This document shows, piece by piece, positions 7,430 to 29,038 of a DNA stretch of 64,000 bases. The position numbers were made by a program, and so were the translations under genes. Under the pieces are notes generated by a model. That model had not been told where the DNA came from, did no database searches, and was given only the letters and a program-made list of their open reading frames with translations. The DNA comes from a virus, in IMG/VR virus record IMGVR_UViG_3300030493_000012; one strand, written 5' to 3'. How positions within the stretch are numbered: position 1 is the stretch's first letter; each line of letters begins with the position of its first letter.

Positions 7430-10400
7430 GATTTAATTATTCGCTTTATTGCGTTTAATGTCAAGATTTAGTTACGAAAAGCCGCTCGTTAGTCAGTTAA
7501 AGCCATAAAAACATAATACGGCCACGCCAAAACTCGCTTCAAAAAGTATTTTCGGAAAGTCCAAAACTGATTAAATTTAATTAGCCCGAAAACAAAAGGC
7601 AATATTCCGAAAAGCCCACCAATGCCAAAATAAATAATTGGAATAAGAATTAAATCATCCATAAATCAGTAGTTTGTTTTAACTCATCCGATAGATAGTC
7701 CAACCAAAACCATTTTTATTCCATCGTTTTTTGTGCCAATCAATATGCACAATTTCGAGCAAAACTTCTAGTCCCAAGATATTTAGACCGAAAATAATAT
7801 TGTAATAATCCCAATGGCAAGTAGCACTAAACCACTCTGAATTATTGTAATGTCCGGTCAAGGCCCAAGGCCACTTTGGATTGTGAAAGATTGTCATGTT
7901 TTTAGTCTATGTTAAACAAACAACGATGTCAATCATAATTTTATTCAACCAGCCTCAAATATTCCACGTTGGCCAAAATACAAGAGACATAAATAGTCTC
8001 ATTTTGATTCCAAAACCCCTCGTCTAGTCTCACAACAACTGGCTTAATCGCAGTATCGCTCAACTCAATTGGCGAGCTAATAATAGTTCCAACTGTGTTT
8101 TGTGCAATATTAATTCTTACCTTGTCGCCAATTTTCAAATTTACCTTCATGCTTTAATAATTAACTTTTCGTCACTAAATGTCAAACGTTTATTCTGGCT
8201 TAATCAACCATTCTTTAATCTGCTCATGGCTAACACCATAAAGACCGTCATGCTGTGTCAACATATACTTGATAGTGCCAATCAGCATATCAGGCTCGCA
8301 AAAATCATCTGGATATTCCAAGTCGCCCAAAATATCAGAATAAAACTCAAAGGTTTCTTTTTTAGACCAGTTCTTTTCAATAGCCTTGGCTGCAACTGTT
8401 TTAGAAATGTCAAAATGTTGGCTCATAAGTTTTGTTTATTCTATAACCTCGCCTTCGTGAATAAAAGACTTAAGGTGTTTGTCTATATCTACTTTGTCTG
8501 AATAATTCTTTTTAAGATAAGCTAATTCACCGTCCAAAAGATAATTAGTTGCCAATTCTTTGGTTTTAAAAATTTTGTCAACCACCGCGCAGTTGTAACC
8601 GTCAGTTGTATAAGTAAAGTAAACTTTCATAGTTTATCACTCAAGCCTGTTTTTAATAGCATCCTCAATCTTATTCCATTCTTTTGAACAAAAATCGCCA
8701 AAAAACTCAGGATGGTTACGATGAATTTCTAAAAATACCTCTCTCAATTCTGGACAAGTACCATAGATATGGCCGGTAATTATTGCCGTATTCAAAACGG
8801 CCAAAAATTCCTTAGCCAGTTGGCCTGAAAAACGAACGTCAAATTCTACTTCCATTGTTTTTTTAATGTTTTTAACCATAATTTTAGAATAGTCTTAAAG
8901 ACCGCCAAAGTCAAGTTTTCCTTTATTGTCCATTATGATTTTTAGCTCTGTGACATGACAACCCTGTTTGTGGCCACAGATATAAGATTTAGCCTCTCTT
9001 TCCGACAAGGCACAATAATATTCAATGCCATCAATCAAAACCATGAAGAAATTATTATCTTGTTTTATTTCGTATTTCATTTTAATCAAAGAAACCGCCT
9101 TTTTGCTTGTGCCTGCAAACATAGCACAGCAAACTAATTAGCGCGAATAATCCAATGACCAAAAGAAAATTCATCTTATTTATTCTTAGAATCAAAACTC
9201 AACACAACACACTTCAAATTCGTCATATCAAGCCACCAACCCGGCTCAACCATATTTTCATTACCAACCGTAATTTTGTCAATTTCGGCAATTCTGGTAA
9301 TAATTTCGGCCTTTAGTTCTTCAAATTTCTGGTGTGGAATTTCGTTCATAAATTAAGATTCACTAAAATTTCTGGACTCTACCAAATAAATATTGCGAAA
9401 AGAACCTTTGTTTTTTGCGCTCTTTCTCATTAGTTCATAATGAAACGAAAAAGCCTCTCCAAAATCCAAAAATCCTCGGCAATTTCTTTCTCGCCAATAA
9501 TCGCCATCTTCACTTCCGATAGTCGGCCATTCATATTCATCGTAAATAACAAAGTATTTATACATAATTAAAGATTAGGCTTAAGTTACGAAAATGTCAA
9601 CTAAATTAAATTTAAATACGAATCCAAAGTTTTCTGAATTTCAAAAACATTACCAGTTCCAAAACTATCAGCCGGAAAAATCTGTTTTTCGTTCATAATA
9701 ATCAAAATACCTTTCAATTTGCGGCCACATAAATAACTTGCAATATTGCTAGTTTTTGCAAAGTGTTTAAGCGTCATGTCGTTTTTGTTAATAACAAAGA
9801 AAGGAAAGGTTTTGCTGTTCATAATTTTTAAGATTCGCTAAATTTCCGAAAATGTCAATGCTTTATTGAGCCATCCTTATGCTTGAAAAACTTAACTGGA
9901 AACCTGCAAGTTGACATCATCTGCCGCCTATTCCATTCTTTCCTTGAAATTGGTTTATTAAAGCTTTGGCCATCAACACGCCAGCCATCGCGGTCATAAA
10001 TAATAATTCCAGTAATTTTCTCCCAAGTTGAAGGTTTGTGCTTTTTGGTCATAATTGATTGTTGGTTTTTCCGAAAAGAATGTCAATAACTATTCCTGAT
10101 TAAACTATCAAAATCCAAGTCTAAACACAAAATCGCGCAAGTATGATTTAGTCCGAAAACATCCAAATGCTTGGCTTTGTCCTGCCACTCTCTAATGTCT
10201 TTTGTTAAAATTGTTGATGGGCAAAATAGAGCCAGATATTCTGCGCTATCTTCTGATAGATTGATTTCTTTTGAGCCGCGAGAGATAATATAGAAATTCT
10301 TCATAATTAGAGTATTGGTTTTAACAACAGACAAGTCAACCATTTTTCAATTCTCTAAAAACAGCCCAAAAATTACTAAAATCCTTTTTATCTGATTTTC

Positions 10401-12854
10401 GCGCTAAAGCCTTATATTCACTTATCTTATCCCCATGAATATTAAATGCCTCATTCCGAATTTCAAGATTATCTTGCTCGCCAGCCAATTCAATTGCTTG
10501 GCGATAAATGGGCTCTTGCTCGGCTGGAAAATTTGTTAGAATTTCTTGTGGCAAGTGAATACCGCGCTCAATATCAAATGTTAGGTTTTCTAAACTCTTT
10601 TGTTTATTTATTGGCCAATTAAATCTCATAATTTAAGTATTGATTTTCGTAACCATCAAATCAAGCAATTTCTCCAGTTTCAGCAAATTTAGTCAAGAAC
10701 GGCAGCAATTTCTTAACTTGGCTCTGTGTCAAATGCATTCTATCATAGACCAAAACCTCTTTAACCCCAAGTTTTTGGCTCAATTCTTTGAAAGTTACTT
10801 CTTGCCAAGGCATACCAATCATTATATGATTTTCTTCAACGCCAAGCCACAAAAGCCGCTCATCTTCAATAGCAGAAGAAATTTGCATATTGCATTTACG
10901 GCCATTTGCATCTTTAAATTCACGATAATCAAAGCCTCTGGCTGTTTGTTTTAGTTTCATATTTATATTCTGTATTTTTACCACCAAAGAGTCAAACCTT
11001 TTTCTTCAAATGCCAACAATTACAAACGCTACACAAATAAGCTGTCAACCTGTGAAATTCACTAGGCGGAACAACCTTTTTGATATGCTCGACATAACTA
11101 TAAGCATCTTTCTTTGATAAAAACCTTTGTTTGGACAAACAAACTTGCCTGCTGCTTGGCGGCACTAAAGATTTTTGTTTAAGCCTTTGATAGTGAGATA
11201 TTTGCATCTTTAATTACAAGCTACCAATTAGCCGTCACATTCACTGGCACGGTTTTGTAAAGTTCCAAGACTGCATTTTCCCCGTCTGCATCAATAATAT
11301 TAATATTATTACCTAAAACCAAGGCGTCAGACAAACCTTGTTCGGTAATTTCGATGAGTTTTCTTAATCCAGAATTACTTTCATAAACAATCTCTAAAAC
11401 AATATTGTTTGGGTTGCCGTTAATTTCATTGTCTCCAATTTGACAATTAAAGTCCCCATCCACGACAACGGTATTAAGGCTAATTTGTTTGGCTAGACTA
11501 AGGATTTTGTTTTCGTTCATAATTGTTTTCGCTAAATTGTTACCACCAACAAGAGATTAAACTTTCGGAACATTAAAGTCAACCATTAAAAATTATTTCT
11601 ACACCATTCCAAAAGCCATTCATCGGACTGTTGGCAGGCAAAATCATATTCGGCGCACCAACAAAAATCTTTATCTGAATAATCGGGCAAACTATCAGAG
11701 GCATAAGCACGACAAACCTCTTCTCTGGTCATGTTATCGAAAAAGAAATCCATATTTTTAGCTTAAACTTTTTATTCCAAAATGTCAAGTTCTATTTTAG
11801 AAGCATACAAATTTACTTCACAAACCACCGGAACGCCTCTTTGCCAGCTTCCCATGTCTGAACTGTAGCTATAATCATCATAGCTCTTATGCAGAGGATA
11901 TTTTTCGCTCTCAGCATCAATTACTAATTCTCTTTTTTCTGGCTGATAAGGCTCCGGGTTTTTTAATTTCAGGCTGAAAATTATAATGCGCCTTAAAGAA
12001 TTGCACAAAAATCGGATACTTCCAAGTAACCACAACCTCTTGATTGTCAGTAACTTTTGTTTCTAAGACTGGCTCGCCGCTGAAAATTTCAAAATACCCA
12101 CTTGGTTTTTCGCCCCAACCGCCGTTTTTAAACGCATAATAAGAAGTAATATTGCAATCTTCAAATCCTTTTGGTACATAACAAAGACGGCGAGGATTGG
12201 GAAGTGTCGCAGAAGTTTTAATTCCAGACAAAAACTTAATAGCCGCTTCTGGCGTCTTAAATAGCTTTTCTTCGTAATCGTCAATTACGGAATAAGAATT
12301 GTTGGTTTTCCAAACGGTAAGTTTCATGTTTTTATGCTAAACTAAATACTAAGACCTGTCAACCAAATTGTGCCATTTGTAGTTTTTAAAAACAAATCCT
12401 TGACCATTACAACTGCTACAAATTCTTTGTGTATAAGAGTTTATATAAGAACCAGCCCCGGCACATTCTGGACAACGCCGCTTGTTTTTCCAGAACGGTG
12501 AATACCAGAAATACCAAGTTTGGAGCCTATTCTTAAACTCATAATAAAAATGAAAAGCCCAGTCAGGCCAAGTGCTTGGCAGGAATCTCCAATAATGATT
12601 TTTGAGCCATTTAATCATTCTCTACCTTAGAAAGATTTGAAAGCGCACAACAAACAGTCGAAACATAAATTCTCTTATCTCTAATCCAGCCGCCAGTATT
12701 ATCGCCATAACCAAGAAAAACCAACGCAAAAGGATTTGGGCCTTTAATTATATGCGTAATTTCTCCTTTAATATCGTCATATCCGAAAATATGGACTTTA
12801 TCGCCAATTTTGAATTTTTTCATAATTAAAGATTAAACTTTCCAAACATCCAAA

Positions 12855-13706: not shown

Positions 13707-15369
13707 AGTTAAAGATTAATCTTTATTTTCCACAATATCAATCTCCAAAACATTGGCATTGTCAATAAACTTGGTTTCGCCGTTTTCTGGAATGATGGCG
13801 TAATAATCTTTGGTCACAGAAAAGGACTTGGCCTTAAGATGTTGGATGTTGCCACTGGTATAGAGGATTTTAATTATCATATTTTAAGTTTAAGTTTTCG
13901 GAGCTAATTAGTCAAGTTAAATTGTCGCTGAAAATGATACCAAGATTGAATAATTTCGTGCATTTCTTCAAGGCTCAAAGTTTTGACACTCAAAGTAAGT
14001 TTAGTCTCGCCGGTTAAATCAGCCATTGTACCTAAATGAATTTTGTCTCTGGCTATGGACAAAACATTCTTTTGAGGATGAAAATTGAATTTTAACATAA
14101 TATATTCTAAATTTCTGGACTTACCGCCTGATTTTCGCCGCCAAACTTCTTTTTCAAACTCTCGAACACCGCTTTTTCTGCTTTAAGTTTTTTAGCCTTT
14201 TCCTCTTTAGCCTTGGCATCGTATTTGGCCAAAATATCATTAATATAATTGGCAATTTCTACATCTAGTTCAAGGCCAGTAAGTTGGAAGAAATTTACAG
14301 GAAAATGAATTTCATGATATTCAGTCTCGCCGTCACGATATTCATAATTAAAAGCAAATGATATTTTATCACTGGACGGCTCAATACTAATCCTATCAGA
14401 ATATTGAATCTTGTGATAGCTCCACTCTGCACTCTCTAGCTGCTGGCCATACAACATTTTGCAATAAGGATTTTTGTCAAACTTGGTTTCTAAGATAGTC
14501 CAAATTTTAGCGGAGATAGACTTTGCTTGTCGGATAAATTCATCAGCTTGGTGGTCATAATTCACCTGAGCAGTACAAAGTTCTTCTTTAAGTTGTTTAA
14601 GATTGTTAATGTTCATAGTTTAAGGATGGGTTTTACAAACAATAATGTCAACACTTTTCAAACTTCCAAGCGGCCAAATCACCTTTATCAGTAAAAATAA
14701 CCTGTAAATTAAAATTCCGAAATTCGCAGTAAAGAGTTTCAGCCATTTTTTCAATCAAATAGTGCGGAACACCTTGAGATTGAAGCATTTCTCTGATTTC
14801 AGAGGCGTCTTGGTTGTCAGAGATTTGGTAGGTGATTGTCATATTTTATCCAGCCAAAACAATTTTCTTGTTAATCCAAATACCTTTTCGTCTAATTTGT
14901 TTTTCGTATTCTGCAATTATTTGATTAGCCTTGGTTTTGTTTACTTTTTGCGATTCAAAACTCCAAAATTCTGGTTTATTAGTGCGACATTCCACGCTAC
15001 CAATTAAATTGCCATCTAAAAATACATGATTAGTGGCGAATCCTAAAGTTGCAAATACAATGTTCATAATTCAAAGAATAAACTTTCAGAACAAATACGT
15101 CAATCAGAATATTTCGGTATCAAGAAAATCTTTGATTCTTTGATTCATGTTGCGCTTCGCATTTTCATAACCTGCATTATGTCCATTGGCCCAACATTGA
15201 CCAAATTTAAGAAACAAACCAGAGTCTTTTATTTTCTTTTGGTCTTCTGACGACAGGCTTTCAAAAAACGTGCTGAACATTTTAATTTCCATATTTCAAG
15301 AATAGAGTTTTGTGGTTAGGTTGTCAAGAAAGAATCGAACGTGCAACGATTTTAAGTGTAATATTAGAT

Positions 15370-16287
15370 ATGAAACAGGTTCAAATAGACGAAAATAAAT
15401 TAATTGAATATCATTCGCAAGGTCTTGATTGCGATAAAATTGCCTCTATCTTTAACTGCGCCCGTTGGACAATATCTAAAAGGTTGAAACTATTAGGTTT
15501 AACTATTAATAAAGCCAAAAGAAATCCGCTTACCAAAGAAACAAAACTGGTAATGTCGGAAAAGAGAAAAGAATGGATTCGCAATAACCCAGATAAACAT
15601 CCGTGGCGAAATCATAATAAATTTAAATCAGTTCCTTGCGAGAAGGTTAAAGAGTGGCTGGTAAATAATAAAATTCAATTTATTTCCGAAATGGAGATTG
15701 AGTGCGCTGATAACCACACTTATTCTATAGACATAGCATTTCCAGAAAGAAAAATTGGATTAGAAATTAATGGAAACCAACATTATAACCGCGACGGAAC
15801 GCTAAAACCTTATTATCAACAAAGAGAAAATTTGATTAAAGAGCTAGGCTGGCAACTGGTTCAAATACATTATTCATTGTGTTTTAATTTAGCTAAAATA
15901 CAAAATATTGTTGAAAATGTTTTAGCCGGTAAAAATGAGGAATTTTTTAATTATAAAGAGTATTTTGAGGAAAAAGCCAAGAGAGAGCAAGAAAAGAAAA
16001 CACCTAAAAAATGTTGCGATTGCGGCTCTGAAATTCATAAATATGCAATAAGATGTCGGAGTTGTGCGTCTTCGGCTATAAACAAAACAAGAACAAAAAG
16101 ATGTGACAAAGAACAATTATTGGAATTAGTAAATAAATTTCCAATGACAGCAATAGCTAAAAAATTCGGAGTTTCCGGTGGTTCTATTAAAAAATGGTGT
16201 AACTTTTACAATATAACAATTCCAGATAGAAGAGGATATTGGGCCAAGTTACAATATGGCAAAACAGAGCCTCAAATAATTATTTAA
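15370..16287 (+). CDS. Free-standing DUF559/Vsr-like PD-(D/E)XK endonuclease with HTH and zinc ribbon (start revised to 15370)
   Basis: SIDIAFPERKIGLEINGNQHY...LGWQLVQI; CCDCG...CRSC; N- and C-terminal HTH-like segments; GTGTAATAT-N5-ATG. Confidence 0.75.
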   Translation: MKQVQIDENKLIEYHSQGLDCDKIASIFNCARWTISKRLKLLGLTINKAKRNPLTKETKLVMSEKRKEWIRNNPDKHPWRNHNKFKSVPCEKVKEWLVNNKIQFISEMEIECADNHTYSIDIAFPERKIGLEINGNQHYNRDGTLKPYYQQRENLIKELGWQLVQIHYSLCFNLAKIQNIVENVLAGKNEEFFNYKEYFEEKAKREQEKKTPKKCCDCGSEIHKYAIRCRSCASSAINKTRTKRCDKEQLLELVNKFPMTAIAKKFGVSGGSIKKWCNFYNITIPDRRGYWAKLQYGKTEPQIII

Positions 16288-16289
16288 AT

Positions 16290-16367
16290 TGGTGGTGTTG
16301 GCGGAAATCGAATCCGCATTATCCAATTATGCACATTCTGTTTAGAAGACAGAGCCATTACAACACC
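16290..16367 (-). tRNA. Aberrant tRNA-Arg(UCU): no D-stem at the normal position, D-arm-like element 3' of the anticodon arm
   Basis: Acceptor GGTGTTG/CAACACC + A-CCA; anticodon arm TCTGT-CTTCTAA-ACAGA; T-arm GCGGA-TTCGATT-TCCGC. Confidence 0.75.
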
Positions 16368-16428: not shown

Positions 16429-18388
16429 CTAACTCTTCTGGCTATTGAAATAATCCAAAGTCTCAAACAATTTATACAGCGGCCTACTAACTTCTTGCCT
16501 AGTAAATTTCTTAGTTAGTTTTGCGGCGTAATCATATTGCAAATTACCAATTACCTTGGTCAAAATTTCAATTTCCTTCTCTGTAAGACTGATGTTTATG
16601 ATAGCGTCCATAGTTTTGATTATTGTCTTTTATAACTACAAAGTCAACTAATTTCCATCATGTCGCCCCGACTCAATAACTTGATTGCAAAATTTGTCAA
16701 TCGCCCACTCTATGTCTTTTCGTTCTAAAGTATCCAAAAACTTCAATTGTTCAGGCGTCCAGCCATATTTGTCGGTTTTCATTGCCATTTTGAAGGCTTC
16801 TTTGTAATTAATCTCTTCTAAGATAGCGGCCAAAATCAAAGATTCTCTTTCTGTTAATTCTATATTCATAAATTATCCCCAAGCCAGCCATGCTCGCAAA
16901 TCAAAAATTGAGCCGCTTTAACATGCTTAACTCCTGCTTTTTCTAGCTTTTCAATTTCTGAATCTTCAAGTTCGCTGGTTGGCGCACAAAAGATGTTCTC
17001 TGTGTCGTTCCAATACCTTTCGCCAAAAATTTCAAAAATCAAATCACTGGATTCTTTACCTTTCAAAACTAAACAGTTTGTTTCAAATGCTTCAATCATA
17101 GTTTTAGATTATACTTTCCGGCTCAAAATGTCAATCAATTTTATTAACCATTCTCTTAATATTCTGAATCTTACCTCTAAGCACAAGACATTCTTTATTT
17201 TTATATTCAAAAACGTCCTTAATAACCTTTAGGTAGTCACTCAATTGGCCATCGTATAAGTCCATACAGTTGGTTAAAGCCCACAAATCAAGTACGGATT
17301 GTCTATATTGTGGAGGCAGCATTTTGACCGCATCTTTGATTGTTTTAGCCATAAACTTTCTTAATTAACCGCAAACTCTTGCAAAACATCGTGCCTTTGT
17401 ACTCAGTTTCGTCGGCTCTCAAGCCGTTACAAGTTTCAAAATGCGGACTATTGGCTTTGACCTTCCAAATTTCAAAGGTTTCATTACCGCCTACAGAGTT
17501 TTTAACAAGGTCTAAAGCATTTTCAAAGGTGTCGAAAACAAACAAAAACTTATTTCTTAAATTTTTAGCATCAATTAGTTCATTTTCAAAATAGCGCAAA
17601 GAAGTTTCGGTATGAGCCGGGACTAAATGATATTCCGAATCCAGTATCCAAGAATGGTTATAACTAACCAATTCATTGGTAATGGTAATTCGGCTTAATA
17701 CTTTATATGCTATTTTGGATTTACTCATAATTGCTTTTACTGATTAAAGATTAAACTTTCGGCACAAGTTTGTCAACATCAAATCCTCGCATTTCCAAAT
17801 AACCTTTAACGCCAAGCATTTTTTGGTAAATTGGAAACCAAGCTATGTGGTATTCGCTGCCCATCATCCTTAATTTATCCTGCAAATCAAAGAAAAACCT
17901 ATATAAATCTTTGCACTCTTGGTCTGTAAGGCTGTTGCCAATTTCGAATTTGTGGATTAGTCCTTTCATCATGTTTTTAGCCTTCGTTTCTCAATTCCCA
18001 ATTCAAATCTTCCGGCTCGCCAAATTCACCCAAAATCAAATCGGCCTTGGTTTGAGCCTCCGACTCGGTTTTGGCATAAAGAGTATAAATGCCCAAAACT
18101 TCATCTTCCAAATCTGTAATCTTAAGGATAAACTTCATAGTTTTGAGAATAAACTTTTTATTAACTAAAGTCAACCTCTAATTTCTCGTAAATTTCAAAT
18201 CCACTCCAGTTAATTTTATTAAAAGCAACAAACTCATCTGATTCAACACCTTCGCCGCCACAGTCAGAAATTGCCACTTTAATTCCGTTCTTACTAACAT
18301 CAAAAACAGTTTCCCCAAAATACCAAACAAGATATTTATCAGAGGCTACAAATTCAGATAATTTATTTAGTTTTTCAAAATTTCGCAT
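16429..18388 (-). other. Block of small hypothetical ORFs
   Basis: ORF track; promoters at 17106-17134, upstream of 18138 (N7 variant) and 18395-18423. Confidence 0.65.
17345..17728 (-). CDS. Paralog family X, member 2
   Basis: AYKVL...FLFVFDTFENA...EIWKV...GTMFCKSLRLIKKV. Confidence 0.65.
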   Translation of the reverse strand: MSKSKIAYKVLSRITITNELVSYNHSWILDSEYHLVPAHTETSLRYFENELIDAKNLRNKFLFVFDTFENALDLVKNSVGGNETFEIWKVKANSPHFETCNGLRADETEYKGTMFCKSLRLIKKVYG

Positions 18389-18419: not shown

Positions 18420-20501
18420 TCAAGCATTATCTTTGATATACTTTTGCAACTCTTTAATAACATTTTCTGTAGTATCAACATACTGACAAAGAGCATGAGA
18501 ATAGAAATCAAACAAAGGATATTTCAGCCGCAACTTAACTATTTCAGCCGCGAAATCAACATTTGGCTCTGGCAACGTAACCGTCTTGCCGGTAATTCGT
18601 TGCAAATCACCCAATATAGAAATCAAATTGTCAAGGTTATTAATTACCGTGGTTTTATTGGCTTCCGCAACCAAATCATCAATCTGGCTATCAAGACCAA
18701 CAAAATCTTTTAGATGATTAATAAACTTGGACTCATTATTTGAAAGATCACTCCACTTTTTGTAATTGACAATTTTCTGAATTTCTGGACTATTTTTAAC
18801 AAAGTTTTCCAATTCCGTATGCAGATAAGAAAACAAGCTTTCCATATTGGGGTTTTTGGCCAACTTTTTGACCGCAGGCTTAGTATAAATCCCAAATATA
18901 TCATTAGGAAGGCTGATTCCCAAACACTTAAGTTTGTCTTTTAGTTCCGAAAATTGATAATCAGAAATACTCTCGCCATCACTAATCATGCCATAATGAT
19001 GCTTTTTGTAGCTTTGCAATACAATGTAATAGCCCGAATCATTCAGAATATCTAACTCACAAGGTTGCATTGCATTATAATAATTCCTTGCGCCGTCATA
19101 CTTATAACACTTAATAGTTTCAGTTCTATTATAAGACAATTTTTCGTCCTGCAAACTTGAGATTAAAATATAAGGATAAGAATCAAAGCCAGAATCTTTG
19201 GCCCAAGCATCAAACTTTGCCTTGTCAGTATATTCAATCAAACGTACCGGACTGCCTGAATTGATTGTGGAGCGCAACCGATTGGTCATTTTTTGCGGCT
19301 CAATATCTTTGACTACATATTTTATGCTAGGCCCAAAATCTAAATAACTATTGACATGAGCTTTGAGCTTAGTTTTGCCTTTGAAATAAATTTCTGAAAC
19401 AGTAATTCCTGGCGCAACATCCAGATGCCAAACATGAATTGTCTTGTTATGCCAAGTAATTTGACCGCCAGAACAGAATGACTCCATTAGGTACTTAAAA
19501 TTCGTACTTTTAATTTCGTTATAAAGACAGTGAACCTCATAAACAGTAGAACACTTTTCAAACTTATCCAAAATATGTTTTTCTACTTCTTGGGCAATAG
19601 AGTTGAGTTTTAAAGCAATATTTTTTGTAGTCCTTTCGTCATAGGAAAGACCTTCCCGGCCAGCATTAACATCCAAATCGCCAATTTTAAAAATAATCTG
19701 AATATCAGTGTCCAGCAATTTGGAACCAGCATCGGTCAAATCAGAAGAATGCCTAACTACGGATTTATCAACAGGATAAGAATAACACCCCATGATGGCA
19801 GTAACAGTTTTCGAGCTATAATAGTCAGACTTAAAAACTTTCCAGTCCGCGCCTTCCAAAATTACAGGTTTGTCAACAATATTAATTCGTGCGCCGGTAA
19901 TTTTAGGACGAGGATTAAAATATTGATAGATTTCAGCGGCTTTTTGTTGAAATTGACTATGGAATTGTACTGGGATTGAAATTTTTACTTCAAACCCTTG
20001 CGGTTCTTGGCTTTCTGATTCGCCAAGGAACATGATTTGAGGAATTCCATTGCTACCTTTAAATACTTGGTATGAACGCTTTTTGTTATCAAGAAAACAA
20101 GTGCAAACAAAGTTATCGGCAAATACCAACGATACCAATCGGCCCGCCCCGATGCTCCCAGCCACTTCATTACTTTTGTTTTTAGTCGAATAAAAAGCCT
20201 GAGTATAATTATTCATCATAAACTCGTGGCTCATACTTATTCCGTAATCTCTCACTTTTAGAAATGATTCAAAAGAATTCGGAACGTGGCATTCGATTGG
20301 AACATCACGCTTTCCAGCTTCAATATGTGAATCAAGCGCATTAGCACTCAATTCTCGAATAATAGCAGTAACCTTGTCTGAATAAATATTTGAAATTAGA
20401 ATATTAAAACTCTTGGCGTTAGCTTTAATTGTAAACTCGCCTTCAATAAGGTTGCCCGTGCCAATCTTCTCAATCTCAATTTCTGGTTGGTATGTAATCA
20501 T
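18420..20501 (-). CDS. rIIA: rIIA-like protein (GHKL/Hsp90-like ATPase N-domain)
   Basis: IYSDKVTAIIRELSANALDSH, VRDYGISMS, FYSTK, GSIGAGRL, GFEVKI, LDVNAGREGLSYD. Confidence 0.85.
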   Translation of the reverse strand: MITYQPEIEIEKIGTGNLIEGEFTIKANAKSFNILISNIYSDKVTAIIRELSANALDSHIEAGKRDVPIECHVPNSFESFLKVRDYGISMSHEFMMNNYTQAFYSTKNKSNEVAGSIGAGRLVSLVFADNFVCTCFLDNKKRSYQVFKGSNGIPQIMFLGESESQEPQGFEVKISIPVQFHSQFQQKAAEIYQYFNPRPKITGARINIVDKPVILEGADWKVFKSDYYSSKTVTAIMGCYSYPVDKSVVRHSSDLTDAGSKLLDTDIQIIFKIGDLDVNAGREGLSYDERTTKNIALKLNSIAQEVEKHILDKFEKCSTVYEVHCLYNEIKSTNFKYLMESFCSGGQITWHNKTIHVWHLDVAPGITVSEIYFKGKTKLKAHVNSYLDFGPSIKYVVKDIEPQKMTNRLRSTINSGSPVRLIEYTDKAKFDAWAKDSGFDSYPYILISSLQDEKLSYNRTETIKCYKYDGARNYYNAMQPCELDILNDSGYYIVLQSYKKHHYGMISDGESISDYQFSELKDKLKCLGISLPNDIFGIYTKPAVKKLAKNPNMESLFSYLHTELENFVKNSPEIQKIVNYKKWSDLSNNESKFINHLKDFVGLDSQIDDLVAEANKTTVINNLDNLISILGDLQRITGKTVTLPEPNVDFAAEIVKLRLKYPLFDFYSHALCQYVDTTENVIKELQKYIKDNA

Positions 20502-20557: not shown

Positions 20558-20627
20558 TGGCGAGCGCGGTAGGATTTGTCCTACATTTCTTTGGCCATTT
20601 TTGCGTCCTTACTTAGACGACACGCTC
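20558..20627 (-). tRNA. Degenerate tRNA-like RNA (Glu-like D-arm) lacking an anticodon stem
   Basis: Acceptor GAGCGTG/CGCGCTC + G-CCA; D-stem GTCT/GGAC; T-stem GTAGG/CCTAC with 6-nt loop ACAAAT; no pairing in the anticodon region. Confidence 0.6.
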
Positions 20628-25245: not shown

Positions 25246-26271
25246 ATGAAAAAATGTTATAAGTGCAAACAGGAAAAGGAATTAAATGAATTTTATAATT
25301 GCAAGAGCCAGCCAGACGGAAAGCAACAAAAATGCAAAGAGTGCTTTAAGATATTCGGAAAAATACAAAATGAGAGAAAACATCAATTAGGTATTTTTAA
25401 ATATTATAATCATATTTTATCTAAAGAAGAAAAGTCGCAAATAGTTAAAGAGTACGCAGAAAATCATCTTTCAACGAAGTTAATTGCTGAGAAATTCAAA
25501 ACGAATACCACGACTGTATTAAGGCTATTGAAAAAAAATAATATAAAAATTGATAGATTAAATTGTCAACGCAAATATAAAATAATTAATATAAACTATT
25601 TTGACAACATAGATACTGAGGATAGGGCATATTTCTTGGGGCTATTGTGGGCTGATGGCTGTAATTATAAAGTAGATGGCAAAGCGCATCAAATTGTTAT
25701 TCATTTGCAAAACAGAGACAGACATATTCTTGAAGAATTTGCTACCAAGATTTATGGAGATACAAAAATTTTGTCAATTAGAAAGAAAAAAGACGAAAGA
25801 TGCCAATTAATGTGTTGCTTTAGAATACCTAATAAATATATCTCTGATGTATTATTTGAGCACGGGATGGTTCCAAGAAAAAGTTTGATAGTTGATTGGC
25901 CTAAAAACCTGCCGGAAAACATGATTAAGCATTTTATTCGTGGTGAATATGATGGCGATGGCGGAATAAGTTATAATTCTAATTCAAAAAATTATGAGGT
26001 TATGTTTATAGGAAGCGTTCTTTTTATCAGTAAGCTTCAAAACTATCTAAATAAAGAACTTAATGATAATTTTAGCCTGAAAATAGAAAAGAAAAAATTC
26101 TCAGTTCCAATGGCTTATTTAAGAATACATGGCAATCTTAAATGTAAAAAATTCCTAGACTGGCTTTATGATGGCGCGAAAACAAAACTAGACCGAAAAT
26201 ACCAGAGGTATCTCAGTCTATGTGAGTTAGTTCAAAAACTACATCCAGAATTAGGCGCAAAACCTGCCTAG
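25246..26271 (+). CDS. Free-standing two-motif LAGLIDADG homing endonuclease with N-terminal zinc ribbon/HTH (start revised to 25246)
   Basis: RAYFLGLLWADG and HFIRGEYDGDGGI; KKCYKC...KCKEC; GTGTAATAT-N5-ATG. Confidence 0.85.
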   Translation: MKKCYKCKQEKELNEFYNCKSQPDGKQQKCKECFKIFGKIQNERKHQLGIFKYYNHILSKEEKSQIVKEYAENHLSTKLIAEKFKTNTTTVLRLLKKNNIKIDRLNCQRKYKIININYFDNIDTEDRAYFLGLLWADGCNYKVDGKAHQIVIHLQNRDRHILEEFATKIYGDTKILSIRKKKDERCQLMCCFRIPNKYISDVLFEHGMVPRKSLIVDWPKNLPENMIKHFIRGEYDGDGGISYNSNSKNYEVMFIGSVLFISKLQNYLNKELNDNFSLKIEKKKFSVPMAYLRIHGNLKCKKFLDWLYDGAKTKLDRKYQRYLSLCELVQKLHPELGAKPA

Positions 26272-28657: not shown

Positions 28658-29038
28658 CTAAATAATTTCTCTTGTTAGCTTGACTGCATCACAAAAAATA
28701 GTGCCTTCAATTGCTTGTTCCGCGACTCTCTTTAAAGACTTTTTCTTACTTTTCAAATCCCAAAATCTTTCTACATTTGTAAAAAATCCAGATATATACT
28801 TTGCCTTGACCGGATTAATAACTTCACACTCAAATATCTTTTCTGAATAATTGGCAAAACTTCGTGCTGCTTCCAGATTGTCAAAAACAAACAGTTTTGA
28901 ATTTCTTTGTGTCGGATAAGCAAATTTGCCAATCTCATACTTGACTGAAAAATAAAACTTTTCGGGCCAAAGTGACGCCCTTGCTGAGCATCGGCTTTGA
29001 TTAGTAACTTTATAGTATTTTTGCATATAATTAAACAA
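28658..29038 (-). CDS. Paralog family X member (tandem duplicate of 28291..28656)
   Basis: YYKVT...KYEIGKFAYPTQRNSKLFVFDNLEAARSFA...IFECEVINP...GTIFCDAVKL. Confidence 0.75.
   Translation of the reverse strand: MFNYMQKYYKVTNQSRCSARASLWPEKFYFSVKYEIGKFAYPTQRNSKLFVFDNLEAARSFANYSEKIFECEVINPVKAKYISGFFTNVERFWDLKSKKKSLKRVAEQAIEGTIFCDAVKLTREII

What the first reader, a model, noticed from the sequence alone, without database searches (positions are those of the whole stretch)
16290..16367. tRNA-Arg(UCU) whose D-arm and anticodon arm are in swapped order
Minus-strand sequence: GGTGTTG-TAATGGC-TCTGT-CTTCTAA-ACAGA-ATGT-GCAT-AATTGGATA-AT-GCGGA-TTCGATT-TCCGC-CAACACC-A-CCA. Acceptor, anticodon and T arms are perfect and CCA is encoded. 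The D-stem is missing at its normal place, while an Arg-type D-loop (AATTGGATA, closable by GCAT/ATGC) sits 3' of the anticodon arm. Swapping two adjacent blocks flanked by TAAT microhomology (27 nt and 12 nt) regenerates a near-canonical cloverleaf. Perfect retention of all other stems argues against simple decay. Possibilities are a functional D-armless tRNA, a nuclease-resistant or decoy tRNA, or a recent rearrangement next to the inserted endonuclease. AGA is a frequent codon in this AT-rich genome.
Basis: partly seen in the sequence, partly recalled or inferred. Interest (0 to 1): 0.75.

Follow-up and report, generated by a model that had tools for sequence, protein, structure and literature searches.

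The report
Rewired phage arginine tRNA (UCU)
This 78-base phage gene is very probably a working arginine tRNA whose D-arm pieces lie in a different order along the chain than in the textbook cloverleaf. It belongs to a widespread phage tRNA family that gene finders miss and that I found described in no paper.

Summary
The sequence is exactly as described (window 16367-16290, minus strand). It is not a one-off rearrangement. The same layout occurs in about 50 distinct genes from unrelated phage contigs and in cultured Streptomyces and Microbacterium phages.

The layout is: acceptor, U8-A9, D-stem 3' strand, N26, anticodon arm, 4-5 nt spacer, D-stem 5' strand, D-loop (A14, G18G19, A20), 2-3 nt linker, T arm.

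- **Structure:** the two D-stem strands pair across the anticodon arm. That helix covaries strongly, and RNAalifold predicts it de novo.
- **Function:** all members but one carry arginine anticodons. They sit in phage tRNA clusters and fill the arginine gaps there.
- **Annotation:** ARAGORN finds none of them. GenBank leaves them blank or mislabels them.
- **This copy:** it belongs to a UCU subfamily (UA-AUGG-C ... GCAU-AA). It is the only gene in this 182-kb T4-like phage that passes the Rfam tRNA model, and AGA is the phage's commonest arginine codon.
- **Neighbour:** the adjacent endonuclease belongs to a family that sits beside tRNA-Arg genes of either layout, so it did not cause the swap.

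The local GCAT/ATGC hairpin and the "recent rearrangement" idea are not supported. This scan has found the same family before on other DNA. I found no publication. Function is inferred, not shown.

The parts
16290..16367 (-). Whole gene: rewired tRNA-Arg(UCU), 75 nt plus encoded CCA
   Evidence: RF00005 38.5 bits; model R1 71.9 bits
16361..16367 (-). Acceptor stem 5' strand GGTGTTG (positions 1-7)
   Evidence: Pairs 7/7 with 16294-16300. In the family, every acceptor pair shows changes on both sides.
16359..16360 (-). U8 A9
   Evidence: Invariant in all aligned members
16355..16358 (-). AUGG: equivalent of the D-stem 3' strand (positions 22-25), here placed before the anticodon arm
   Evidence: Pairs A22-U13, U23-A12, G24-C11, with a G25.G10 mismatch. 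The same register is used throughout the family. xTGG is invariant in the UCU subfamily.
16354..16354 (-). C26 equivalent
   Evidence: C in most members
16337..16353 (-). Anticodon arm TCTGT-CTTCTAA-ACAGA; anticodon UCU at 16344-16346, with U33 and A37
   Evidence: the helix covaries in the family
16333..16336 (-). 4-nt spacer AUGU (the variable-loop equivalent, now joining position 43 to position 10)
   Evidence: Spacers are 4-5 nt in all members. L078 has the same AUGU.
16329..16332 (-). GCAU: equivalent of the D-stem 5' strand (positions 10-13), here placed after the anticodon arm
16320..16328 (-). D-loop AAUUGGAUA (A14 A15 U16 U17 G18 G19 A20 U A21)
   Evidence: Invariant or nearly so in the family. 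A20 is the D-loop identity element for ArgRS (established knowledge).
16318..16319 (-). Linker AU before the T stem (a candidate U48 partner for A15)
   Evidence: A-U is invariant before the T stem in all members. Its tertiary role is inferred.
16301..16317 (-). T arm GCGGA-TTCGATT-TCCGC
   Evidence: The pair at 53:61 is A-U here and G-C in the other 21 sequences of the first alignment.
16290..16300 (-). Acceptor 3' strand CAACACC, discriminator A73, encoded CCA
15310..16287 (+). 325-aa free-standing endonuclease gene (HTH modules plus a Vsr/DUF559-like core with D...(L/I)EI(N/D)G..H). It is convergent, and its stop lies 2 nt from the tRNA's CCA end.
   Evidence: Homologues lie beside tRNA-Arg genes in most of 33 viral loci.
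16429..16611 (-). 60-aa ORF just upstream; the tRNA is probably co-transcribed with it
   Evidence: A promoter-like TTGACT-17-AATAAT site lies at 16647-16619 on the minus strand. This is a consensus match only.

Best explanation
The gene encodes a functional elongator tRNA-Arg(UCU) with a non-cloverleaf connectivity. The block that normally holds the D arm, anticodon arm and variable loop (positions 10-48) is circularly permuted. The chain runs: acceptor 5' strand, U8-A9, D-stem 3' strand (22-25), C26, anticodon arm (27-43), a 4-nt spacer, D-stem 5' strand (10-13), D-loop (14-21), a 2-nt linker, T arm, acceptor 3' strand, A73, CCA.

The two D-stem strands pair around the anticodon arm. They form one long D/anticodon helix with an internal loop, so the secondary structure is a three-way junction. 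The D-loop is now a single-stranded joiner in front of the T arm. It keeps A14, A15, G18G19, A20 and A21, so it can still dock on the T-loop and build the elbow of the L-shape (inferred).

With C35, U36, A20 and A73 the RNA should be charged by the host ArgRS and should read AGA, the phage's most used arginine codon (inferred). The layout most likely arose once, by tandem duplication and deletion within a canonical tRNA-Arg gene, and has since diversified in phages (inferred).

Shown here: the layout, its conservation, the covariation, the genomic setting and the anticodon complementarity. Not shown here: expression, folding, charging and decoding.
For: (1) The same layout occurs in about 50 distinct genes. 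They come from unrelated IMG/VR and metagenome contigs and from cultured Streptomyces and Microbacterium phages, and their acceptor stems all differ.

(2) Covariation on 22 sequences: 90% of cells are paired against 61.6% in shuffles. 18 of 21 pairs show changes on both sides. The score is 0.771 against 0.203 (0/500 shuffles), and it collapses when partners are slid by 1-3 columns. The enclosing D-like helix is Watson-Crick in 22/22 sequences at two pairs, with four pair types each. RNAalifold predicts the same helix de novo.

(3) Model R1 separates members (50-98 bits; window 71.9) from canonical tRNAs in the same loci (35 bits or less).

(4) The window's own subfamily (UA-[A/U]UGG-C ... GCAU-AA, anticodon UCU) appears in 11 more viral contigs. 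Acceptor stems there are 100% paired, with double changes in 6 of 7 pairs.

(5) All members aligned carry Arg anticodons (UCU, ACG, GCG, UCG, CCU) and GG-A (A20), except one GAU member, which has U20.

(6) The genes sit inside phage tRNA clusters and fill Arg gaps. Arrays of 19, 22 and 25 tRNAs have no ARAGORN-detected Arg. Where a canonical Arg is present it always has a different anticodon (L024, L034, L038, L040, L049, Mildred21).

(7) In this phage it is the only gene that passes RF00005. AGA makes up 42% of Arg codons.
Against: - There are no expression, aminoacylation or structure data.
- Nearest-neighbour energies do not favour the 3-bp D-like helix in this copy: -19.5 kcal/mol with it, -19.9 without it, and an MFE of -22.6 with another small hairpin.
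- This copy deviates from its relatives. It has G25.G10, A53-U61 instead of the almost universal G53-C61, and a Watson-Crick 28:42 pair where 9 of 10 subfamily members have a mismatch.
- The same phage holds other clearly defective tRNA-like genes, so decay of its tRNA set is possible.
- No close relative of this phage could be fetched to check synteny.
- Most members were found with patterns that fix the D-loop and T-loop, so conservation of those letters is partly imposed by the search.
Confidence: 0.75

Rival explanations
1. In this particular phage the copy is a decaying or non-functional relic of the rewired family. It would be a pseudo-tRNA that still looks intact.
For: The phage carries other defective tRNA-like genes: an anticodon-stem-less one at 20558-20627 and a CAU one with an odd T-loop just outside the window. 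This copy has unusual A53-U61 and G10.G25 pairs and the lowest score among the AATTGGATA-type members.
Against: All 17 pairs of the three main arms are Watson-Crick. U8, A9, A14, A15, G18G19, A20, A21, U33, A37 and the T-loop are intact, and CCA is encoded. The A53-U61 change is compensated on both sides. G10.G25 is invariant in the whole UCU subfamily, so it is a feature and not damage.
Confidence: 0.12
2. It is a tRNA mimic or decoy that is not used in translation, for example bait for a host tRNA-cleaving defence or a regulator.
For: The non-canonical core could change recognition by nucleases. The phage encodes two RNA ligases, as tRNA-repair phages do.
Against: Family members have complementary Arg anticodons that fill gaps in otherwise complete phage tRNA sets. 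The anticodon-loop signature and the ArgRS identity letters are conserved. A decoy would not need five different Arg anticodons.
Confidence: 0.08
3. The transcript is cut and re-ligated, for example by the phage RNA ligases, into the canonical order. On this view the gene is only permuted at the DNA level.
For: The window phage, Mildred21 and A3Wally all encode RNA ligases near their tRNA genes. Re-ordering the blocks would give a near-perfect cloverleaf with a 5-nt variable loop.
Against: It would need three cuts and three ligations at sites with no known splicing motif. The acceptor ends are already terminal, unlike the permuted genes of Cyanidioschyzon. The helix that encloses the anticodon arm forms in either order, so it does not require re-ordering.
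Confidence: 0.03
4. It is an assembly artefact or a recent local rearrangement caused by the neighbouring endonuclease.
For: The endonuclease gene ends 2 nt from the tRNA.
Against: The identical order is seen in dozens of independent assemblies and in finished genomes of cultured phages. The endonuclease family also abuts canonical tRNA-Arg genes. No remnant of another tRNA flanks the endonuclease.
Confidence: 0.01

Closest known systems
Canonical class I tRNA-Arg(UCU) of bacteria and phages (E. coli argU type, phage T4 tRNA-Arg; Rfam RF00005)
   Same: 7-bp acceptor stem, 5-bp anticodon arm with the CUUCUAA loop, 5-bp T arm with a UUCGAUU loop, D-loop letters A14/G18G19/A20/A21, U8-A9, A73 and CCA. 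Presumably the same synthetase and codon. It passes the Rfam tRNA cut-off.
   Different: The D-stem strands are not joined through the D-loop. Strand 22-25 precedes the anticodon arm, and strand 10-13 plus the D-loop follows it. The result is a three-way junction, not a four-way one. ARAGORN does not find it.
D-arm-lacking mitochondrial tRNAs (nematodes, mites)
   Same: No D hairpin between position 9 and the anticodon stem; only a short connector in its place.
   Different: Those tRNAs have lost the D-loop and the elbow contacts. This RNA keeps a complete D-loop and a covarying D-like helix, and it is of full length.
Permuted tRNA genes of Cyanidioschyzon merolae (3' half upstream of 5' half)
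   Same: A tRNA gene whose segments are in non-canonical order, probably through duplication and deletion.
   Different: There the whole molecule is permuted and a canonical tRNA is restored through a circular intermediate. Here only the internal block 10-48 is permuted, the acceptor ends are terminal, and the mature RNA most likely keeps the new order.
Non-canonical bacterial and phage tRNAs with 8/4 or 9/3 acceptor/T branches (allo-tRNAs; PMC5389517)
   Same: Natural tRNAs, some of them in phages, that depart from the standard cloverleaf and were overlooked by gene finders.
   Different: Those change helix lengths but keep the order of the arms. That paper does not mention a permuted D arm or tRNA-Arg.
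T4 SegB-type free-standing homing endonucleases in phage tRNA clusters (comparison for the neighbouring ORF only)
   Same: A free-standing endonuclease gene lodged directly beside tRNA genes in a T4-like phage.
   Different: The fold appears different: a Vsr/DUF559-like core with HTH modules, not GIY-YIG, on weak matches. No cleavage data exist. The SegB comparison is from my own knowledge.

Membership tests
Canonical tRNA (cloverleaf, Rfam RF00005) | Score at or above the Rfam gathering threshold | tested here: met
   38.5 bits against a cut-off of 29. The hit is hidden in the clan-filtered cmscan output.
Canonical tRNA (cloverleaf, Rfam RF00005) | D hairpin (10-13 / loop / 22-25) located between position 9 and position 26 | tested here: not met
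   Only 5 nt (AUGG C) lie between A9 and the anticodon stem. ARAGORN finds no gene.
Canonical tRNA (cloverleaf, Rfam RF00005) | Acceptor 7 bp, anticodon arm 5 bp with a 7-nt loop holding U33 and R37, T arm 5 bp with a TPsiC-type loop | tested here: met
Rewired (internally permuted) phage tRNA-Arg family (unpublished; defined in this scan) | Order: acceptor, U8A9, 22-25, N26, anticodon arm, 4-5 nt spacer, 10-13, D-loop, 2-3 nt linker, T arm | tested here: met
   Segment-by-segment alignment with 21 other genes. Model R1 scores 71.9 bits, while canonical tRNAs score 35 or less.
Rewired (internally permuted) phage tRNA-Arg family (unpublished; defined in this scan) | Helix 22-25/10-13 enclosing the anticodon arm | tested here: met
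   The window has 3 Watson-Crick pairs plus G.G in the family register. The family shows covariation and RNAalifold predicts the helix. Within the UCU subfamily the helix is invariant, so it is uninformative there.
Rewired (internally permuted) phage tRNA-Arg family (unpublished; defined in this scan) | Arg anticodon plus A20 after G18G19 | tested here: met
   UCU and AAUUGGAUA. The same holds in all Arg-type members aligned.
tRNA-Arg identity set for bacterial ArgRS (A20, C35, U/G36, A/G73; established knowledge) | Presence of the identity nucleotides | tested here: met
   A20, C35, U36 and A73 can be read directly.
tRNA-Arg identity set for bacterial ArgRS (A20, C35, U/G36, A/G73; established knowledge) | Aminoacylation with arginine | not testable with these tools
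   Needs an in vitro charging assay or acid-gel Northern blot
D-armless (mitochondrial-type) tRNA | Loss of the D-loop and D-stem elements | tested here: not met
   A complete D-loop and both D-stem strands are present, but relocated.
Class II tRNA with a long variable arm | Self-paired hairpin in the variable region | tested here: not met
   The local hairpin GCAT/ATGC has no covariation and pairs no better than shuffles.
tmRNA (tRNA-like domain) | Rfam RF00023 threshold; tag reading frame | tested here: not met
   27.6 bits against a cut-off of 47. Only the acceptor and T arm match, with 30 nt in place of 326. ARAGORN in tmRNA mode finds nothing.

The most novel reading that the evidence does not exclude
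The rewired layout is an old, phage-specific class of elongator tRNA. It builds the L-shape from a three-way junction. On this reading it is kept because it makes the tRNA, or its gene, insensitive to something that attacks ordinary tRNA-Arg. Candidates are a host tRNA-targeting defence nuclease or a tRNA-gene homing endonuclease. The layout would then be adaptive counter-defence and not a frozen accident.
Probability: 0.2. Interest if true: 0.92.

Novelty: new variant of a known kind. Interest (0 to 1): 0.8.

Why it matters
The cloverleaf order of arms is treated as universal for cytoplasmic-type tRNAs. A conserved, diversified family in which the D/anticodon domain is circularly permuted, yet all tertiary-contact nucleotides are kept, would show that the L-shape can be reached with a different strand connectivity.

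It would also matter in practice.
- It offers a natural scaffold for tRNA engineering.
- It explains 'missing' arginine tRNAs in phage tRNA sets.
- It exposes a systematic blind spot and mislabelling in phage annotation. One Mildred21 copy is labelled tRNA-Phe(gaa), another tRNA-OTHER, and others are blank.

Cultured Streptomyces and Microbacterium phages carry the family, so the question is directly testable.

Tried and rejected
- **ARAGORN settings:** lowered thresholds, mitochondrial, intron and tmRNA modes gave no valid call.
- **blastn of the 1.1-kb neighbourhood against cultured phages:** no match.
- **Looking for close relatives of this phage through rIIA:** none in viral contigs. Cultured phages reach only about 30% identity. 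Synteny in a true relative is therefore untested.
- **Exact T-arm/acceptor pattern:** no hit.
- **Relaxing the D-loop in the pattern (TGGATA only):** 13 chance hits and no new member.
- **L004, L022 and about 20 of the 36 metagenome hits:** chance matches.
- **Genome contigs pattern scan:** all four hits were chance matches.
- **Model R1 on bacterial genomes:** nothing found in 302 genomes from two phyla. This is a weak test, because only 31 candidates per genome were scored.
- **L042 as a possible 'two D-loop' intermediate:** rejected. It is a tRNA-His with a normal D arm, and its TAATTGGATA lies in a variable-arm hairpin ATCC-TTAATT-GGAT.
- **Remnant of a canonical tRNA beside the endonuclease:** none found.
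- **Idea that the endonuclease marks the rewired allele as the resistant one:** not supported, because the same endonuclease family abuts canonical tRNA-Arg genes too.
- **Literature:** five searches found no description of this layout.

Full report
**1. The observation**

It holds:
- a perfect 7-bp acceptor stem;
- a 7-nt connector UAAUGGC where a D arm should be;
- a perfect 5-bp anticodon stem with loop CUUCUAA (anticodon UCU, U33, A37);
- 19 further nucleotides, AUGU-GCAU-AAUUGGAUA-AU;
- a perfect T arm with loop UUCGAUU;
- A73 and an encoded CCA.

RNAfold recovers the three arms at -22.6 kcal/mol, z = -2.6. ARAGORN reports no tRNA anywhere in the window and none at relaxed settings. cmscan at gathering thresholds also shows nothing. 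A search of the genome with the tRNA model alone gives 38.5 bits, above the cut-off of 29. In the clan-filtered output a sub-threshold tmRNA match (27.6 bits, acceptor and T arm only) appears to displace it.

The window lies in a 182-kb IMG/VR virus record estimated 98% complete. Its gene content is T4-like: rIIA, clamp loader, Rnl1-like and Rnl2-like RNA ligases, and a DnaB-like helicase. It has no close cultured relative.

**2. The layout is shared by many unrelated phages**

I scanned viral contigs for a pattern that asks only for a UCU anticodon loop, then a D-loop-like AWTTGGWTA, then a T-loop. It returned three genes with the same architecture and different acceptor stems. A second pattern asks for a D-loop directly in front of a T arm with any anticodon. 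It added members in viral contigs and 14 distinct members among 36 metagenome hits. The four hits in 185,579 prokaryote species genomes were all chance matches.

Twenty-two distinct genes align segment by segment. The order is: acceptor 5' strand, U8-A9, four nucleotides, N26 (mostly C), anticodon arm, a 4-5 nt spacer, four nucleotides, AAUUGGAUA, a 2-3 nt linker ending in AU, T arm, acceptor 3' strand.

The two four-nucleotide segments are complementary and covary: CCC/GGG, CUC/GAG, CGG/CCG, ACC/GGU, AAC/GUU, AGA/UCU, AUC/GAU, GCC/GGC and CCG/CGG.

Counting pairs on this alignment:
- 90% of cells are paired, against 61.6% in shuffles.
- 18 of 21 pairs show changes on both sides.
- The covariation score is 0.771 against 0.203 (0 of 500 shuffles reach it).
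- The signal collapses when partners are slid by 1-3 columns.
- Two pairs of the enclosing helix are Watson-Crick in 22 of 22 sequences, with four pair types each.

RNAalifold predicts the same enclosing helix without being told.

**3. What the layout means**

Mapped onto standard numbering:
- The segment before the anticodon arm is the D-stem 3' strand (22-25), followed by position 26.
- The segment after the arm is the D-stem 5' strand (10-13), followed by the D-loop (A14 A15 U16 U17 G18 G19 A20 U A21).

The internal block 10-48 is therefore circularly permuted, with a new start at 22. The spacer after position 43 has the length of a class I variable loop.

The result is a three-way junction: the acceptor, a long D/anticodon helix with an internal loop, and the T arm. 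The D-loop is a single-stranded joiner placed next to the T arm.

Established knowledge of tRNA tertiary structure says that A9 contacts the 12-23 pair, that A21 lies on the U8-A14 pair next to positions 46-48, and that 44-45 contact 26 and 10-25. The three new connections (9 to 22, 43 to 10, 21 to 49) should therefore join residues that are neighbours in the L-shape. This step is inference. I could not model it.

**4. Evidence that the family works as arginine tRNAs**

A covariance model of the layout (R1) scores members at 50-98 bits and the canonical tRNAs of the same loci at 35 bits or less. It also found further copies.

- *Identity.* All aligned members carry Arg anticodons (UCU, ACG, GCG, UCG, CCU) and an A after G18G19, the A20 identity nucleotide of ArgRS. 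The one exception has GAU with U20.
- *Setting.* The genes lie inside phage tRNA clusters, and ARAGORN misses every one.
- *Filling gaps.* Arrays of 25 tRNAs (L030), 19 (L058) and 22 (L062) have no ARAGORN-detected tRNA-Arg, and the rewired genes fill that gap.
- *Complementary anticodons.* Where a canonical tRNA-Arg is present (L024, L034, L038, L040, L049) its anticodon differs from that of the rewired gene.

Cultured phages carry the family. A blastn search with one member hit 80 phage records, 75 of them Streptomyces phages and 3 Microbacterium phages, mostly with nothing annotated under the match.

Streptomyces phage Mildred21 holds four copies:

| Anticodon | GenBank annotation |
|---|---|
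| UCG | tRNA-Phe(gaa) |
| ACG | unannotated |
| UCU | tRNA-OTHER |
| GAU | unannotated |

Its only annotated tRNA-Arg is CCU. Microbacterium phage A3Wally has an unannotated ACG copy.

**5. The window copy**

In the family register it has A22-U13, U23-A12, G24-C11 and a G25.G10 mismatch. These letters define a UCU subfamily (UA-[A/U]UGG-C ... four nt ... GCAU-AA). I recovered it in 11 more viral contigs, including Streptomyces phage isolates, at 55-71 bits. A plain blastn search with the window gene hit the same subfamily at unannotated sites of 14 Streptomyces phage records.

Within the subfamily:
- Acceptor stems are 100% paired, with double changes in 6 of 7 pairs.
- xUGG/GCAU is invariant, so G.G is a family feature and not damage.

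The window copy is unusual in two ways. It has A53-U61 where the other 21 sequences of the first alignment have G-C. It has a Watson-Crick 28:42 pair where 9 of 10 subfamily members have a mismatch.

Nearest-neighbour energies are neutral on the D-like helix: -19.5 kcal/mol with it against -19.9 without it.

It is the only R1 hit and the only RF00005-passing gene in the 182-kb genome. AGA is the commonest Arg codon of the window's ORFs, at 42% or 15.9 per 1000 codons. A promoter-like site upstream of the preceding 60-aa ORF could drive it (a consensus match only).

**6. The endonuclease**

The 325-aa ORF at 15310-16287 (+) ends 2 nt from the tRNA's CCA end and is convergent with it. It has HTH modules and a core with weak similarity to Vsr/DUF559-type nucleases such as PvuRts1I.

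Homologues abut rewired tRNA-Arg genes in L005 (42% identity, stop codon touching the CCA end, convergent) and in L034.

Starting from the protein, I found 33 viral loci.
- Almost all lie in tRNA clusters.
- By my reading of the two tables, roughly 26 have a tRNA-Arg, mostly UCU, close beside the endonuclease gene.
- That tRNA-Arg is either canonical (for example L094, L096, L108) or rewired (for example L086, L087, L092, L100, L106).

L086 has the same subfamily and the same convergent, abutting arrangement as the window. The endonuclease family therefore appears to home beside tRNA-Arg genes whatever their layout. It did not create the permutation, and no tRNA remnant flanks it here.

**7. 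Known or new**

Five full-text searches found no description of a tRNA with this order of arms. The paper on non-canonical 8/4 and 9/3 tRNAs does not mention it.

This scan's own notes show that other agents reached the same family from other genomes and also found no paper. My family evidence was gathered before I read those notes, so it is an independent re-derivation, but it is not independent experimental support.

I file it as a new variant of a known kind: a tRNA with a non-cloverleaf connectivity.

**8. Limits**

Function is inferred from sequence, covariation and genomic setting only. Most members were found with patterns that fix the D-loop and T-loop, so the true breadth of the family is not measured here. 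The Mildred21 and A3Wally copies show that the D-loop does vary. No close relative of this phage could be examined. 'Not found in cellular genomes' rests on one pattern scan and on a lightly scored sample of 302 genomes.

Noticed in passing
L002:1501-1572 (G000:C1:142483-142554, about 475 nt outside the window's low-coordinate end): A second tRNA-like gene of this phage. It has a 7-bp acceptor GGGCCTT/AAGGCCC, a D arm, an anticodon loop CTCATAA (CAU), an encoded CCA, and a non-canonical 8-nt T-loop CAACTCAA. RF00005 gives 24.8 bits, below the cut-off, and ARAGORN finds nothing.
   Followed up: partly
window 20558-20627 (-): A CCA-ending tRNA-like RNA with good acceptor, D and T stems. Where the anticodon arm should be there is an unpaired A-rich stretch, and the T-loop is ACAAATC. 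So this phage holds several aberrant tRNA-like genes besides the rewired Arg.
   Followed up: partly
window 15310-16287 (+); L086-L118: A family of free-standing endonucleases (HTH modules plus a Vsr/DUF559-like core) lies directly beside tRNA-Arg genes, canonical or rewired, in most of 33 viral loci. It is often convergent, with its stop codon touching the tRNA 3' end. This makes it a candidate tRNA-Arg-gene homing endonuclease.
   Followed up: partly
L071 (Streptomyces phage Mildred21, MF155946.1, 66000-100000): 25368-25443, 20380-20454, 28858-28934, 7704-7780: GenBank annotation errors caused by the rewired layout. 'tRNA-Phe(gaa)' (SEA_MILDRED21_169) is a rewired tRNA-Arg(UCG). 'tRNA-OTHER' (_147) is a rewired tRNA-Arg(UCU). 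Two further rewired genes (ACG and GAU) are unannotated.
   Followed up: yes
L071:7704-7780: A rewired-layout gene with anticodon GAU (Ile-type) and U at position 20 in place of A. The layout is therefore not strictly limited to arginine, and both Arg identity letters have changed together in this copy.
   Followed up: partly
L042:1641-1729: An 89-nt tRNA-His(GUG) with an 8-bp acceptor, a normal D arm and a long variable-arm hairpin ATCC-TTAATT-GGAT. Its T arm, GCGGA-TTCGAAT-TCCGT, has the same unusual A53-U61 pair as the window gene. A fragment of the same endonuclease family lies 110 nt upstream.
   Followed up: partly
L088:2348-2439, L089:2351-2442, L106:52-144: Longer variants of the rewired layout (92-93 nt), with insertions in the spacer or in the D-loop joiner. 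They score 40-44 bits with model R1.
   Followed up: no
window 16290-16367: A pipeline quirk. At gathering thresholds cmscan lists no hit, although RF00005 alone scores 38.5 bits. The likely cause is that a sub-threshold tmRNA match wins the clan competition on E-value and is then dropped.
   Followed up: yes
L057:7570-7645 and 12205-12280; L058:4095-4172, 8343-8419, 8431-8508: Some phage contigs carry several rewired Arg genes. L057 has two near-identical UCU paralogues. L058 has three with different anticodons (UCU, GCG, UCG), two of them in tandem, and no canonical Arg among the 19 tRNAs of that stretch.
   Followed up: partly
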